Assembly (NCBI RefSeq): GCF_009914755.1 | Contig: NC_060941.1 | Reading direction: 5' to 3' (one strand) | DNA: 64,000 nucleotides | DNA from: the human T2T-CHM13v2.0 reference genome, Homo sapiens | Shown: one piece after another, positions 21,816 through 30,479 of the stretch | Layout: the number at the start of each line of letters is the position of its first letter | Numbering within the stretch: position 1 is the stretch's first letter | Notes under the pieces: generated by a model | Told to the model about the DNA's origin: nothing | Databases searched by the model: none | Seen by the model: the letters and a program-made list of their open reading frames with translations, nothing else | Program-made: the position numbers and the translations under genes

Positions 21816-21921
21816 CTGAAATGTGTCCCATCATCTGAGTCGTCCCTCATTCCCAAGCTCCCACATATTCACAGAGGCCCATCCTGACATATATGCTGCC
21901 TTTGAAGGTCTGGACAAATAC
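21816..21921 (-). pseudogene. Pseudo-exon: CRD exon 2 homolog
   Basis: cag|...|gtgact. Reads VFVQTFKGSIYVRMGLCEYVGAWE* vs CLEC10[26 protein letters not shown]. 106 nt vs 107 nt. Confidence 0.85.
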
Positions 21922-21992
21922 CTGAGACACACATGGGTGGTGTTGACTTCTCTCCACCCCAGATGTAGGTGCTCCTAGGCTGGGGATCTCAT

Positions 21993-22144
21993 CAGCTCTT
22001 CCTGGAGTGGACGGCAACCAGGTGGGGGTTCTCCAGCTGGTGGAGTGTTCTCAGCCTCGGGCCAAAATGCCTAAAAGCAGGATGGCCGGTGGCAGCTGTC
22101 TTTGGGCTCTAACCAGCTCCCAGGGCAGAAGGTTCCCATGGAGC
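21993..22144 (-). pseudogene. Pseudo-exon: CRD exon 1 homolog
   Basis: Reads SSMGTFCPGSWLEPKDSCHRPSCF*AFWPEAEN(fs)QLENPHLVAVHS vs ASGR2 [47 protein letters not shown]. Donor decayed to ATGAG. Confidence 0.88.
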
Positions 22145-22220
22145 CTGATGGATAGAGGCCAGGTTCCCGTGGGGGAGGGCAACATGGCAGGATGAAGGCT
22201 GGGCATGGAGCCCTCCTCAC

Positions 22221-22308
22221 TGAGGCTCTCAAGGGCAGCCATGTTACAGATCAGGTCATTGCAGGTCAGTCACCAGCTGCAGGACTTGGGGGAACATGGT
22301 CATCTATC
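22221..22308 (-). pseudogene. Pseudo-exon: last neck exon homolog
   Basis: Acceptor context cccactgcccatctgtgtatgtccccag matches CLEC10A. Reads G*MTMFPQVLQLVTDL(fs)NDLICNMAALES. 88 vs 87 nt; donor gtgagg. Confidence 0.85.
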
Positions 22309-22449
22309 CTGGGGACATACACAGATGGGCAGTGGGGGACAGCAAAGGTCCCAGGAGGTCAGACACCCCTAATCCCTTCAACAGTGCCTTGGCCTGGCCC
22401 TAGCAGCTCTCAAACTCTCCACACACAACATTGCAAGGTGGTCTCGAAC

Positions 22450-22522
22450 CTGCTGAGTTCCTGCTCCTGCTTCTCCAGCTTGTTCTCCACACTGTACCAT
22501 GTAGTGTCACTCACACTGCAGG
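22450..22522 (-). pseudogene. Pseudo-exon: second (extra) neck-repeat exon
   Basis: cag|...|gttcga, 73 nt. Reads ACSVSDTTWYSVENKLEKQEQELS, a heptad neck repeat. Confidence 0.7.
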
Positions 22523-26000: not shown

Positions 26001-26157
26001 CTGTCCCACCACTGCTCCAACACTTTTGCAAGATTTTTTCTTGCAAAAAAAAGACTTTTTCTCTGACCATCCATCACTAAACCTGTACCTCACCATTACC
26101 ACCACACCACTACACCCCATTATTTCTGTCTTCTCTGTCCACCCCTGTGACCCTCAC

Positions 26158-26273
26158 TTTGGGATCGGACCACACAGATGACAACCAGGAGCAGGAGGCC
26201 GAGGCACAGGGACAGCAGGAGGAGGCAGTCCCAGAGTGCAGATGCTGCAGGAGGGCCTGGGGAGGAGGCAGCC
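26158..26273 (-). pseudogene. Pseudo-exon: transmembrane exon homolog with a 1-nt deletion
   Basis: 116 vs 117 nt. Reads GLPPPQALLQHLHSG(fs)CLLLLSLCLGLLLLVVICVVRSQ vs CLEC10[40 protein letters not shown]. Donor gtgagg; acceptor is GAG. Confidence 0.92.
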
Positions 26274-27151
26274 CTCAGGAGGAGGGGGTGTCAAGACGAG
26301 GAGCGTCCAGGACATGACAGAGACGGGAAGAGGAGAGGGGCCAGGGAGCTGTCTAGAGAGGAGGGCTGAGCATAAAGGACACCAGGAAAGGGCGGGATGG
26401 GAAGGATTTCAGGGTGGGGGATGCCCAGGCCTTTGACCTCAGGGACCAGCACAAGTCCTCAGTCACACAGGCCCCTCACACCCGTGGGGACCACCAAACA
26501 CACACACACAGATGGGGGATAATGGAGATATGTGAGGTCCCATGGTCAGAGCTGGGGAAGGGGCAGAAGGACACAGGGAGAGCTGGGGGCAGCCAGGCCC
26601 TTCATAGGCTCACGCTCATCTGTGAAAGCAGGTGAAATTATGGTCTTCCTTTGAAGACTTTCCTAAATAACCCATGTTTTTCCTGCTTCCTGTCCCTGTG
26701 CCACTGAGGACCCTAACTCCCCTGAAGACTAGGACCACAGAGGCCAGGCCCTGAACCCTCAGAGAGGGGGATCTCCACAGTCCATACTGGAGTCACAGAA
26801 ATGACCAAAACCAGGAGCCCTGGAGCTACAGCACAGGGGAGACATGAGAAACCCCTCATTGCAGATAGAGGCATTGTCGGCCGGGCGCGGTGGCTCACGC
26901 CTATAATCCCTGCACTTTGGGAGGCCAAGGATCACCTGAGGTTGGGAGTTCGAGACCAGCCTGACCAACGTGCAGAAACCCCGTCTCTACTAAAAATATG
27001 AAATTAGCCAGGCATGGTGGCGCATACCTGTAATCCCAGCTACTCAGGAGGCTGAGGCAGGAGAATCACTTGAACCCAGGAGGTGGAAGCTGCAGTGAGC
27101 CGAGATCACATCATTGCATTCCAGCCTGGGCAACAAGAGCAAAACTCCATC

Positions 27152-27335
27152 AAAAAAAAAAAAAAAAAGAAGGAAAGAAGGAAAAGAAAGAAAAGAAAGG
27201 AAAGGAAGAAAAGAAGGAAAGAAAGAAAAGAAAAGAAAGGAAAGAAAAGAAAGAAAAGAAAGAAAAGAAAGAAAGAAAGAAAGAAAGAAAGAAAGAAAGA
27301 AAGAAAGAAAGAAAGAAAGAAAGAAAGAAAGAAAG
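27152..27335 (+). repeat. Polypurine (GAAA)n/(GAAAA)n expansion of an Alu tail
   Basis: About 185 nt of A/G only, ending in a pure (GAAA)n run. Confidence 0.95.
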
Positions 27336-28275
27336 AGTTACTGTCTCTGAGAGAGGCACCATCCTTAGACTAGACCTCCTGGGCTTCACACTTTAGAGGG
27401 CCCTCACTGGCCCTCCTGTGACTCCATCCCTTCCTGTGGGACTGGGAATCTCCAGGGCCAAGGTGATGTGCTCACCCCAAGCCATACCTGCCCTTCTAGA
27501 CCATCCTCTGGGTACCTGGGAGCCCAGATCGTCCACCCAGGCAGCTGTACACCTGTCTTCCCCGGGCCTGTCCCCTGGGTGGCAGACCCTGCTCCTGGTG
27601 TGCCCACCCTGAGGCTCAAGTGGTAGCCATGGGCAGGGGTTGGGGGGGTGAATGGAGGGTGTGGACCATGCTGAAGGTGTCCTCACGTGTCCCCCAGGCT
27701 CCTCAAGGTGCAAGACTGAGCTGAGGGAAGGGAGCAAAGGGAAGTGAGCTCAAGAGGAACTAGCTCAGGCCTCTGCAAACTTTGAGGGGTGGGCCTGTCT
27801 CTGGGGTCTTCTGCTTGTCTTACCTTTTCTTTTTCTTTTTCTTTTTTTTTCTTGAGACAGAGTCTCGCTCTGTTGCCAGGCTGGAGTGTAGTGGCGCGAT
27901 CTTGGCTCACTGCAACCTCCGCCTCCCAGGTTCAAGCAATTATCCTGCCTCAGCCTAATAAGTAGCTGGGACTACAGGCACCCACCACCATGCCCAGCTA
28001 ATTTTTGTATTTTTTAGTAGAGACAGGTTTCACCATGTTGGCCAGGATGGTCTTGATCTCTTGAACTCACGATCCGCCTGCCTCAGCCTCCCAAAGTGCT
28101 GGGATCACAGGTGTGAGCCACTGCACCCGGCCCAATTTTTTATTTTTAGTAGAGACGGGGTTTCGCCATGTTGGCCAGGCTGGTCTCGAACTCCTGACCT
28201 CAGGTGATCCACCCACCTCAGCCTCCCAAAGTGCTGGGATTACAGGCGTGAGCCGCCGCACCTGGCCTGTCATAC

Positions 28276-28409
28276 CTTTTCTAAGATCATGTTCCTTCTC
28301 ACTCTCTAAGCACTTGAGGTCTTCATACTTCATTGACATCCTTGGCCCAAGTGGTCTCTGTGGCTGCAGGAGCTGAGATGGAGGCAGAGAAAGGACTCCG
28401 AGGGGGAGC
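28276..28409 (-). pseudogene. Pseudo-exon: first coding exon homolog (cytoplasmic tail)
   Basis: ttatttcag| acceptor, ATG at 28339, reads [22 protein letters not shown], donor |gtatga, phase 1 as in CLEC10A. YEDL corresponds to the YENF endocytosis motif. Confidence 0.88.
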
Positions 28410-30479
28410 CTGAAATAAGGGCTGGAGGTGGGTGTGGAGCTGGTTTTGAGGTAGGAAGTGAGGATTCGATAGAGGCTGAGCCAGGCGTGAGGACTAGGAA
28501 TGTGGCTGGGGGCTGGGTTTGCAGGTGAGGTTGAAACAGCGATCACAATTGGGGTTGTATCTGGGGTTAGGATGGGGTTGACTTACTTGGGGCTAAAAAT
28601 CAGATTGGGTCTCAGGCTAAGATTGTAGACAGGGCTCCTTTGGAGTTGGGTCTGAGTTTGGGGCTGAGATTGGAAACATGTGGGATGGAGCATGGGGGTG
28701 TAGTACAGCTAGGCTGGAGCTGCAGTGGGGACAGAGATTGAATTTAGGGATGAATTTAGAGCCGACATTGGGACTGCAGTTGGGGCTGGAACTGGGATTG
28801 TATTGGTTTGGGGCTGTCCAACCCAATCTGGAAGTCAGTGGAGAGATCATTTCAATCTCCTCCAATAACTAGTTCAATCTGTGATCCATCTTCCCAGTTA
28901 TTTCCACCTATAACACAAAGTCGCCCTCTCCATATTTTCCCTAATGCCCTCCCTGCCTCCGCCGTCCAGTTACCTGTACAAAACTAGAGAATGTAATTGT
29001 TTGCTTTCTTAGGTAGCAGAATTACCAGGTCAGGAAATTCTAGAGGGAACTGACTTGTATTGGTTCTCCTGCTCCCCTCTACATTCTGTGGCCCTGGTAG
29101 AACTGTGATCTCACGCTCCTGCTGGGTGGCTTCTCTCCCATGATCCAAAATCTTTCAGACCCAGGGGAGAGAGGCACAGAGCTGCTTGGGTGGATGATCT
29201 GGGTGGATGTTCTTTACTTTTGTGCCTTCAGGCTTCAGAGTGGTGATGTCTCTGCTATTCTTAGCCACAGGGACTTCACCAACTTTTGTTGGCTTCCTCA
29301 ACCCTGCTCACACTCTGTAAATGTCATTAAACTCTTTTCAATAAACCCTTTTGTGGCCAAGCACTGCAGCTCATACCTGTAATCCTAGCAGTTTGGGAGG
29401 CCAAGGCAGGACAATCGCTTGAGCCCAGGAGTTTGAAACCACCCTGGGCAACATAGTGAGACCCTATCTCTACAAAAAATAAACTTAGCCAGGCATGGGG
29501 GCACACATCTATAGTCTCAGCTACTCAGGAGGCTGAGAAGAGAGGATTGCTTGAGTCCAGGAGTTCAAGGCTGCAGTGAGCTATGATCGCACCACTGCAT
29601 TCTAGCCTGGGTGACAGAACAAGAACCTGTCTCTCTATATATATATGTAGAGAGAGAGAAAGAGAAATAAATCCTTTGGTTTTGACACCTGTATCTTGCT
29701 GGAACTGATTAAAAAAAAACCCTTTGAATAAAATTATAAATGTTTACTATGGTACACAGAAAAATAAAAAAGAATAAACTCCATTTGGAAGTCTAACAGG
29801 CTCCTCAAACTCAACATGTTCAAAATAAAGCTTCTTATCTCCTCATCCCACCCACAAAACCAGCTTCTCACACGGTCTTCCCATCTTAATTAACTGGGAC
29901 TCCATCCTTCTAGGTTTTCAAGCCCCAAACCTGGAATTATCCTTGACTTTCTCATTTTCCCAAACCCCTCAGACAACCCATCAGCAAATCCTGACAGCTA
30001 ATTCAGACATTCCTATATGCCAGGGAGCTTTCTGGGTACAGTAATACAGCAATGAATGGGTCCTGCCATCCCTTAATGAACTTAAAAAGTTGGTTCTTAA
30101 TAGCTGAAATGCAGCTGGGTGTGGTGGCTCATGCCTGTAATCCCAGCACTTTGGGAGGCCGAGGCGGGCTGATCACCTGAGGTCGGGAGTTGGAGACCAG
30201 CCTGACCAACCTGGAGAAACCCCATCTCTACTTAAAACACAAAAGTAGCCAGACATGGTGGCAGGCTCCTGTAATCCCAGCTACTCGGAAGGCTGAGGCA
30301 GGAGAATCACTTGAACCTGGGAGGCGGAGGTTGCAGTGAGCTGAGATGACGCCATTGCACTCCAGCCTGGGCAACAAGAAGGAAATTCCCGTCTCAAAAA
30401 AAAAAAAAAAAAAAAAAATCAAAATAGCTGAGATGCTTCCCTGGTATATGCTGGATTGATTGAAAAAACAGAAATCTCC

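What the first reader, a model, noticed from the sequence alone, without database searches (positions are those of the whole stretch)
21816..28974. Hidden fourth member of the ASGR/CLEC10A cluster: a near-complete unprocessed lectin pseudogene
Seen: eight colinear minus-strand exon remnants (cytoplasmic tail, TM, four neck exons, two CRD exons) with exon sizes 64(coding)/116/94/72/73/88/152/106. CLEC10A has 67/117/96/72/-/87/155/107. Splice sites are mostly intact and intron phases match. It is disabled by frameshifts and stops. Established: human is described as having one MGL gene, while mouse has tandem Clec10a (Mgl1) and Mgl2. Inference: this is a lost second MGL-like gene on the SLC16A11 side. 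It is either the positional counterpart of one rodent gene or an older paralog that may still be intact in other mammals. Its tail (YEDL...HDLRKG) and CRD exon start (GCTCC, lacking CLEC10A's 3 extra nt) look ASGR-like or ancestral.
Basis: partly seen in the sequence, partly recalled or inferred. Interest (0 to 1): 0.85.

Follow-up and report, generated by a model that had tools for sequence, protein, structure and literature searches.

The report
Dead tandem copy of CLEC10A
About 2.8 kb downstream of the human macrophage lectin gene CLEC10A lies an old, broken, intron-containing copy of that gene, absent from RefSeq; it is a real relic of a second MGL gene but cannot be paired with either mouse gene (Mgl1 or Mgl2) by sequence.

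Summary
Fifteen of 16 splice dinucleotides are intact. The copy carries three in-frame stops and frameshifts in six exons.

"Near-complete" overstates it. The third CRD exon, which holds the QPD and WND sugar/calcium-binding motifs in CLEC10A, is absent. The 5' non-coding exon and promoter are not recognisable either. Detectable homology runs from 21805 to 28432, not to 28974.

It belongs to the MGL (CLEC10A) lineage, not to ASGR. It keeps ancestral MGL features: a KYEDL tail, a neck exon that catarrhine CLEC10A lost, and no haplorhine extra codon.

It has evolved nearly neutrally (omega about 0.84) and is old (dS to CLEC10A about 0.45). A catarrhine-specific origin is rejected (AU p = 0.009). 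Any earlier origin, from stem primates to the early placental radiation, stays open.

The two mouse-type sequences cluster inside Murinae, and AU rejects psi grouping with them (p = 2e-71). One-to-one sequence orthology to a rodent gene is therefore not supported. Concerted evolution at this locus keeps positional orthology open. No intact ortholog was found among about 260 mammalian MGL/ASGR proteins. This is a modest, ordinary finding: a pseudogene missing from RefSeq.

The parts
28276..28409 (-). Exon A remnant, the counterpart of CLEC10A exon 2. It has about 70 nt of 5'UTR plus 64 nt coding, with ATG at 28339. It reads [21 protein letters not shown](G). Acceptor AG and donor GT are intact, and an Alu starts about 10 nt after the donor.
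   Evidence: Identity to CLEC10A is 70% with a 3-nt in-frame deletion. tblastn with the Bos MGL N-terminus gives 75% over 16 aa.
26158..26273 (-). Exon B remnant (transmembrane segment), 116 nt against 117. A 1-nt deletion after 26230 shifts the frame. AG and GT are intact.
   Evidence: Identity is 83.6% to CLEC10A and 81% to ASGR1.
26114..26621 (-). Tract of unusually high similarity to CLEC10A, covering exon B, 348 nt of upstream intron and 44 nt of downstream intron. It is either a gene-conversion tract or a constrained intronic element.
   Evidence: 82% over 511 nt; intron K2P is 0.16 and 0.05 here, against 0.29-0.9 in the other introns.
22778..22871 (-). Exon C remnant (neck), 94 nt against 96, with a 2-nt deletion after 22841. 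AG and GT are intact.
   Evidence: Identity is 70%.
22628..22699 (-). Exon D remnant (neck), 72 nt, with no indel or stop. This is the MGL-type neck exon that has no counterpart in ASGR1/2.
   Evidence: 58% identity. In the alignment ASGR1 and ASGR2 have a gap here.
22450..22522 (-). Exon E remnant (neck), 73 nt against the usual 72. It reads ..SVENKLEKQEQELS. This exon is used by most mammalian MGL genes but is no longer an exon in human CLEC10A. AG and GT are intact.
   Evidence: read by hand; aligns with ..LSLENRLEKQLEELKA of Bos, lemur and mouse. One search shows a relic of the same exon in the CLEC10A intron at 32876-32957.
22221..22308 (-). Exon F remnant (neck), 88 nt against 87. It has TAG at its second codon (22306-22304) and a 1-nt insertion at 22261. 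Upstream, 22309-22370 is homologous to the 27-aa alternative extension of CLEC10A (PHCPSVYVP).
21993..22144 (-). Exon G remnant (first CRD exon), 152 nt against 155. It has five small indels, TAG at 22073-22071, and its donor changed from GT to AT (21992-21991).
   Evidence: Identity is 70-75%, depending on the alignment.
21816..21921 (-). Exon H remnant (second CRD exon), 106 nt against 107. It has a 1-nt deletion and TGA at 21849-21847. The donor GT is intact. Homology to CLEC10A ends about 10 nt further on (about 21805), and the third CRD exon is missing.
23265..25995 (.). Insertions that enlarge intron B-C to 3.3 kb, against 1.0 kb in CLEC10A. There are two copies of a roughly 400-nt high-copy interspersed repeat (23265-23473 with 23814-23970, and 25596-25995) and an Alu at 23492-23786.
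   Evidence: 9,525 first-look candidates in the genome.
26891..28266 (.). Alu insertions (26891-27171 and 27836-28266) and a simple repeat (about 27200-27340) in intron A-B. None sits at an orthologous position in CLEC10A.

Best explanation
The interval holds a non-functional, unprocessed pseudogene of the MGL (CLEC10A) lineage. I infer that a head-to-tail tandem duplication of the ancestral MGL gene placed a second copy about 2.8 kb downstream of what is now CLEC10A, on the same strand.

Shown:
- The copy kept the ancestral ten-exon layout, including a neck exon that catarrhine CLEC10A later lost.
- It no longer holds the exon that encodes the sugar/calcium-binding site in CLEC10A, nor a recognisable first exon and promoter.
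- It has accumulated stops, frameshifts, one donor mutation, and Alu and LTR-like insertions.

It therefore cannot make a lectin. Its only conceivable activity today is as passive DNA, or as read-through or non-coding transcript, which was not testable here.

Inferred:
- It died early or on arrival, because its own branch has dN/dS of about 0.84.
- The split from the CLEC10A lineage pre-dates catarrhines (tested) and probably haplorhines (character states). It is roughly as old as the primate-rodent split (dS about 0.45), with wide error.
- A 0.5-kb tract around the TM exon was probably homogenised later with CLEC10A by gene conversion.
- It is not the sequence ortholog of mouse Mgl1 or Mgl2.
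For: - Exon-by-exon colinear homology with intact splice sites.
- Profile scores: 240 bits for non-rodent MGL, 187 for rodent MGL, 174 for ASGR1, 160 for ASGR2, and below 5 for shuffles.
- The MGL clade including psi has 99-100% support against ASGR1/2.
- The four-point nucleotide distances favour (psi, CLEC10A) against (ASGR1, ASGR2).
- Exon D, which ASGR lacks, is present.
- Lesions are listed. The last exon is absent. Exon 1 and promoter are not detectable.
- Near-neutral evolution: pairwise omega is 0.83 with dS 0.45. On the psi branch dN is 0.26 and dS is 0.31. The nucleotide branch lengths are 0.30 for psi and 0.10 for CLEC10A.
- Age: AU rejects psi with Catarrhini (p = 0.009). At catarrhine-derived columns psi has the ancestral state at 6 and the derived state at 1. 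It has the ancestral KYEDL tail, lacks the haplorhine extra codon and retains exon E. No Alu is shared with CLEC10A and no flank homology is left.
- Mouse: the Mus rows cluster with 100% support inside Murinae. AU rejects psi with the two Mus rows tested (p = 2e-71).
Against: - The position of psi inside the MGL tree is unresolved (UFBoot 43-52). AU does not reject psi with Primates (0.62; 0.39 under C20), Haplorhini (0.24), Simiiformes (0.19), Strepsirrhini (0.28) or Rodentia (0.12), nor psi outside all sampled MGL (0.23).
- The psi reading frame was projected onto CLEC10A, which slightly favours CLEC10A-likeness.
- The dS asymmetry between the two branches (0.31 against 0.10) suggests that conversion between CLEC10A and the ASGR genes, or misalignment, distorts the three-point estimates.
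- Dating rests on a remembered human-lineage neutral rate, not on a calibration made here.
- The truncated copy lies downstream of the complete one. A simple truncating duplication would not give that arrangement, so I assume the last exon was lost by a later deletion; this was not shown.
- Transcription was not tested.
Confidence: 0.9

Rival explanations
1. Psi is the human remnant of an ancestral two-gene MGL pair that already existed in the common ancestor of primates and rodents, or earlier. By position it would correspond to the SLC16A11-proximal rodent gene. The rodent pair looks recent only because gene conversion keeps homogenising tandem copies.
For: - dS between psi and CLEC10A is about 0.45 and intron K2P is 0.3-0.6. 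That is about what two neutral copies would accumulate on the human lineage since the primate-rodent split (my own recollection of the rate).
- The ML tree places psi outside Primates at the base of the non-rodent MGL clade.
- Separately named genes, most of them on one contig, cluster by species in Apodemus, Nannospalax, Loxodonta, Saccopteryx and Hipposideros. This is the pattern expected from concerted evolution.
- There is a likely conversion tract between psi and CLEC10A in human.
- Human MGL is functionally like mouse MGL2.
Against: - No clade of intact proteins groups with psi.
- Recurrent independent duplication explains the by-species clustering equally well.
- Long-branch attraction can pull psi towards the base of the tree.
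- AU does not reject psi with Primates.
- The mouse gene order could not be checked with these tools.
Confidence: 0.3
2. Psi arose by a duplication private to the primate stem, after the split from rodents and before or around the strepsirrhine/haplorhine split. It is unrelated to the rodent duplication. Its basal position in the tree is a long-branch artefact.
For: - AU does not reject psi with Primates (p = 0.62 and 0.39), Haplorhini (0.24) or Strepsirrhini (0.28).
- The highest identity of psi is to Otolemur (54%), and its tail is closest to the strepsirrhine form.
- The tract around exon B has K of about 0.16.
- Lineage-specific duplications are common at this locus.
Against: - Divergence outside the exon B tract (K 0.3-0.6, dS 0.45) is high for a duplication of 70 My or less on the slow primate lineage.
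- No second primate MGL protein, intact or partial, appears in the databases.
- No Alu is shared between the copies.
Confidence: 0.45
3. Psi is a recent (catarrhine or hominoid) duplicate of CLEC10A that decayed quickly.
For: It is adjacent, in the same orientation, and has 82-86% identity around exon B.
Against: - AU p = 0.009 for psi with Catarrhini.
- Psi has the ancestral state at 6 of 8 catarrhine-derived columns and the derived state at 1.
- It has the YEDL tail, retains exon E and lacks the extra codon.
- About 30% nucleotide divergence elsewhere, and no shared Alu.
Confidence: 0.02
4. Psi derives from ASGR1 or ASGR2 rather than from the MGL gene, or from an ancestor that pre-dates the MGL/ASGR split.
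For: - The bipartition that puts psi with the ASGR genes and outside all MGL is not rejected by AU (p = 0.23-0.25).
- The TM exon is 81-82% identical to ASGR1.
Against: - The ML tree places psi inside MGL with 99-100% support for that clade.
- The four-point condition favours psi with CLEC10A.
- The MGL profile scores 66-80 bits above the ASGR profiles.
- Psi has neck exon D, which ASGR1/2 lack.
- At MGL-against-ASGR diagnostic columns psi has the MGL state at 3 and the ASGR state at 0.
- Intronic homology exists only with CLEC10A.
Confidence: 0.03

Closest known systems
Human CLEC10A (MGL, CD301), the neighbouring parent-type gene at window 31209-36923
   Same: - Same strand, head-to-tail arrangement, and the same exon order and boundaries for tail, TM, neck and the first two CRD exons.
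- Exon identity is 58-84%.
- Homologous intron stretches are present.
- The sequence of the 27-aa alternative extension upstream of exon F is shared.
   Different: - Psi has stops and frameshifts and lacks the third CRD exon and exon 1 with its promoter.
- It keeps neck exon E. In CLEC10A that exon is only an intronic relic, cut by an Alu and with its donor changed from GT to AT.
- Its tail reads KYEDL rather than TYENF.
- It lacks the extra codon at the CRD start.
Mouse Mgl1 (Clec10a, CD301a) and Mgl2 (CD301b) tandem pair
   Same: Both are a second MGL-type gene in the same cluster. The mouse genes keep exon E as psi does. By my recollection, which I could not verify here, the pair also lies between Asgr2 and Slc16a11.
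   Different: - The two mouse-type sequences are about 89% identical to each other, and the Mus rows group together inside Murinae.
- Psi is about 30% diverged from CLEC10A at the nucleotide level and does not group with them (AU p = 2e-71).
- The mouse genes are intact and expressed, whereas psi is dead.
ASGR1 and ASGR2 (hepatic asialoglycoprotein receptor subunits) in the same 17p13 cluster
   Same: They belong to the same type II C-type lectin family (Pfam PF03954 with PF00059 in the intact relatives) and have the same exon logic. The TM exon is 81-82% identical to ASGR1.
   Different: - The ASGR genes lack neck exon D.
- Psi shares intron homology only with CLEC10A.
- Profile, tree and distance analyses all put psi with MGL.
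Lineage-specific 'CLEC10A-like' or 'ASGR1-like' duplicates in other mammals (bats, cetaceans, elephant, murines, mole-rat)
   Same: They show that tandem duplication of the MGL gene is recurrent at this locus. Psi is the human relic of one such event.
   Different: Those copies are predicted to be intact and cluster with the other copy from the same species or order. Psi is degraded and clusters with none of them.

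Membership tests
Unprocessed (duplicated) pseudogene | Retains the parent's intron-exon structure rather than being an intronless retrocopy | tested here: met
   Eight exon remnants are separated by introns, with 15 of 16 AG/GT sites intact. 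There is intronic homology to CLEC10A.
Unprocessed (duplicated) pseudogene | Disabling lesions that prevent production of the parent-type protein | tested here: met
   There are three in-frame stops, frameshifts in six exons, one donor changed from GT to AT, and the last CRD exon is missing.
Unprocessed (duplicated) pseudogene | Relaxed selection (dN/dS near 1) | tested here: met
   Pairwise omega is 0.83. On the psi branch dN is 0.26 and dS is 0.31. The estimates are noisy, being based on 174-221 codons.
MGL / CLEC10A lineage, as opposed to ASGR1/ASGR2 | Groups with MGL genes in phylogeny and distance analyses | tested here: met
   The MGL clade including psi has 99-100% support. The four-point test favours psi with CLEC10A. 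The MGL profile scores 240 bits against 174 and 160 for the ASGR profiles. AU alone does not reject psi outside MGL (p = 0.23).
MGL / CLEC10A lineage, as opposed to ASGR1/ASGR2 | Four-exon neck, with exon D present in addition to the exon E type | tested here: met
   Exons C, D, E and F are all present. ASGR1 and ASGR2 have a gap at exon D.
Functional Gal/GalNAc-type C-type lectin CRD | Complete CRD including the QPD and WND calcium/sugar-binding motifs (third CRD exon) | tested here: not met
   No homolog of the last exon lies downstream. The two remaining CRD exons carry stops and frameshifts. The short stop-free pieces give no Pfam hit.
One-to-one ortholog of mouse Mgl1 or Mgl2 | Groups with one mouse gene to the exclusion of the other | tested here: not met
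   The Mus-type sequences cluster together (100%) within Murinae. Psi with the two Mus rows tested is rejected (AU p = 2e-71).
One-to-one ortholog of mouse Mgl1 or Mgl2 | Conserved position (synteny) next to Slc16a11 | not testable with these tools
   No mouse genome or annotation could be reached. Literature searches gave no gene order.

The most novel reading that the evidence does not exclude
Psi is the decayed human counterpart of the SLC16A11-proximal member of an ancestral MGL gene pair that pre-dates the primate-rodent split. Under this reading human CLEC10A is the positional ortholog of mouse Mgl2 only. Humans, and perhaps all primates, have lost the counterpart of mouse Mgl1 (the Lewis-X-binding CD301a). 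The high Mgl1/Mgl2 similarity in mouse would then be due to concerted evolution.
Probability: 0.25. Interest if true: 0.6.

Novelty: new member of a known kind. Interest (0 to 1): 0.35.

Why it matters
Mouse work on CD301a (Mgl1) and CD301b (Mgl2) is routinely translated to the single human MGL, and reviews state that humans have one gene and mice two. A physical relic of a second human MGL gene shows that the human lineage once had two copies.

It also gives a concrete object for testing whether human CLEC10A corresponds to one mouse gene or to both, by synteny and multi-species alignment.

Psi preserves ancestral features: the YEDL endocytosis-type tail and the extra neck exon. These document how catarrhine CLEC10A changed, including loss of a neck exon through an Alu insertion.

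On the practical side, the copy is a possible source of mis-mapped reads or primers for CLEC10A exon 3 (the TM exon), since the tract there is 82-86% identical. It also lies in the SLC16A11-CLEC10A interval, which from memory I associate with human metabolic-trait association studies. Beyond that it is an ordinary dead gene.

Tried and rejected
- Last CRD exon. I searched 700-21900 with the last-exon peptides of human CLEC10A and three other MGL/ASGR proteins using very permissive tblastn. Only noise came back (best E about 0.25-0.3; the top hit, found with two queries, is on the wrong strand).
- Exon 1 and promoter. Local alignment of CLEC10A 36700-37300 against 28420-31208 scored within the shuffle range.
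- Duplication-unit flanks. Alu-masked blastn of the regions upstream and downstream of CLEC10A against those around psi found nothing.
- Other genes or RNAs in the interval. ORFs of 90 aa or more are Alu-derived or have no Pfam match. Rfam gave no hit.
- PDB. It holds no mouse MGL entry to use as a reference.
- Literature. There were no hits for CLEC10AP1, ASGR1P1 or ASGR2P1, and the 'CLEC10AP' matches are 'CLEC10Apos'. I found no paper linking CLEC10A to a pseudogene at this locus.
- A clone name I half-remembered (AC120057) turned out to name a CRK pseudogene, and I could not place it at this locus, so I dropped it.
- Mouse gene order could not be obtained, and PMC2885198 is not held.
- Profile and Pfam tests on stop-free psi pieces are uninformative because the pieces are only 23-24 aa.
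- I did not type any spliced or joined protein into a database tool. Full-length relatives were reached through a single-exon query and then by protein ids.
- GENCODE/Ensembl pseudogene tracks could not be consulted.

Full report
**Observation.** I rebuilt the CLEC10A coding sequence from the annotated exons and searched the window with it. tblastn and blastn found a colinear minus-strand series of matches between 21805 and 28432. The blastn E-values are 5e-144 for the TM exon with its flanking intron, 7e-35 for the first neck exon and 1e-18 for the first CRD exon.

I then read the sequence directly and aligned exon by exon. This gave the following remnants:
- A: 28276-28339, 64 nt coding, within an exon spanning 28276-28409.
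- B: 26158-26273, 116 nt.
- C: 22778-22871, 94 nt.
- D: 22628-22699, 72 nt.
- E: 22450-22522, 73 nt.
- F: 22221-22308, 88 nt.
- G: 21993-22144, 152 nt.
- H: 21816-21921, 106 nt.

Fifteen of 16 splice dinucleotides are intact; the exon G donor is AT. In the homologous frame there are three stops: TAG at 22306-22304, TAG at 22073-22071 and TGA at 21849-21847. There are length changes in exons A (-3, in frame), B (-1), C (-2), E (+1), F (+1), G (five indels, net -3) and H (-1).

**What is missing.** The third CRD exon, which in CLEC10A carries QPD and WND, was not found anywhere downstream with very permissive searches. Homology stops about 10 nt after the exon H donor. No flank homology survives outside the gene body. 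The copy is thus 8 of 10 exons, not 'near-complete'. Nothing else of note lies in the interval: ORFs are Alu-derived or unmatched and there is no Rfam family. The enlarged introns are explained by Alus and by two copies of a roughly 400-nt high-copy interspersed repeat.

**Which lineage.** A single-exon query against the representative library gave full-length relatives. Two word-index searches with those ids returned about 260 named mammalian MGL/ASGR proteins. I made a conceptual translation of psi with X at every break and placed it in trees.

- In the 104-row quick tree and the 66-row careful tree, the MGL clade including psi is separated from ASGR1/2 with 99-100% support.
- Human-only nucleotide distances satisfy the four-point condition for (psi, CLEC10A) against (ASGR1, ASGR2).
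- Profiles built from the alignment score psi at 240 bits (non-rodent MGL), 187 (rodent MGL), 174 (ASGR1) and 160 (ASGR2), with shuffles below 5.
- Psi also has neck exon D, which ASGR1/2 lack.

So it is an MGL-lineage copy, not ASGR-like.

KYEDLQ.LESE tails occur in strepsirrhines, camelids, elephant and armadillo, and the one-codon insertion at the CRD start is restricted to haplorhines. Exon E is used by most mammals, including mouse, and by one lemur isoform. In human CLEC10A it survives only as an intronic relic (..[10 protein letters not shown]..) cut by an Alu, with its donor changed from GT to AT.

**Age and mode of evolution.**
- Pairwise NG86 gives dS 0.45, dN 0.37 and omega 0.83. 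With ASGR1 as outgroup, the psi branch has dN 0.26 and dS 0.31.
- Nucleotide branch lengths are 0.30 for psi and 0.10 for CLEC10A.
- Intron K2P is 0.29-0.9 except around exon B, where it is 0.16 over 321 nt and 0.05 over 44 nt. I read that tract as a later gene-conversion event, or alternatively as a constrained element.
- No Alu is shared between the two copies.
- AU tests reject psi with Catarrhini (p = 0.009). They do not reject psi with Primates (0.62; 0.39 under C20), Haplorhini (0.24), Simiiformes (0.19), Strepsirrhini (0.28) or Rodentia (0.12), nor psi outside all MGL (0.23).
- At catarrhine-derived columns psi has the ancestral state at 6 and the derived state at 1.

From my own knowledge of human-lineage neutral rates (not calibrated here), a dS of 0.4-0.45 between two copies is about what accumulates since the primate-rodent split. 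I therefore place the duplication somewhere between the early placental radiation and the haplorhine ancestor, with early inactivation.

**Rodent orthology.** The Mus-type sequences (P0142, P0266, P0286 and the Mus caroli P0267) are 85-98% identical over the aligned parts. P0266, P0267 and P0286 cluster with full support inside Murinae; P0142 was not a row in the trees. Psi with the two Mus rows of the 66-row set is rejected (p = 2e-71).

There is a caveat. In Apodemus, Nannospalax, Loxodonta, Saccopteryx, Hipposideros and others, separately named genes, most of them on one contig, cluster by species. That pattern fits either recurrent duplication or concerted evolution. With a likely conversion tract in human as well, positional orthology cannot be excluded, and synteny could not be tested here. 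No intact protein groups with psi, and primates show only one MGL gene with isoforms.

**Knownness.** RefSeq (as supplied) does not annotate it. Reviews state one human MGL and two mouse genes. No paper searched mentions a CLEC10A pseudogene. GENCODE could not be checked.

**Verdict.** This is a real and well-described observation. It is an ordinary, old, unprocessed pseudogene with some value for the question of human-mouse MGL orthology.

Noticed in passing
window 32876-32957 (minus strand), inside the CLEC10A intron between exons 33405-33476 and 32648-32824: There is a relic of neck exon E in functional CLEC10A, reading ..[14 protein letters not shown]... Its 5' side abuts the Alu at 32959-33283 and its donor is AT instead of GT. 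The human gene apparently lost this 24-aa neck exon through an Alu insertion and/or donor loss, while lemurs still use it.
   Followed up: partly
window 26114-26621 against 34625-35108: This 0.5-kb tract, made of the TM exon with its flanking intron, is 82-86% identical between psi and CLEC10A (95% in the 44 nt of downstream intron). The remaining alignable sequence is about 60-75% identical. It looks like a gene-conversion tract or a constrained intronic element.
   Followed up: partly
window 32403-32557 against 63675-63826 (CLEC10A and ASGR2 first CRD exons), and ASGR1 in L002: The first CRD exon is 90% identical in nucleotides between CLEC10A and ASGR2, and 88% between ASGR1 and ASGR2. Other exons are 54-73% identical between CLEC10A and ASGR2. 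This points either to very strong constraint or to inter-paralog conversion.
   Followed up: no
window 23265-23970, 25596-25995 and 39512-40239: These are copies of a roughly 400-nt high-copy interspersed repeat, LTR-like, with 9,525 first-look candidates in the genome. Two of the three local copies carry an Alu at about the same internal position and align colinearly at 75% over 739 nt. I took one look only and did not pursue it.
   Followed up: partly
proteins P0186, P0204 and P0209 (Aotus, Callithrix, Saimiri CLEC10A): In Aotus, the one New World monkey row in that alignment, the position of exon E is filled by a sequence that repeats exon D ([22 protein letters not shown] appears twice). 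This suggests an exon D duplication in place of exon E in platyrrhines.
   Followed up: no
window 27200-27340: There is a simple 4-5-nt purine-rich repeat next to an Alu tail in psi intron A-B. It generates spurious lysine/glutamate-rich ORFs.
   Followed up: no
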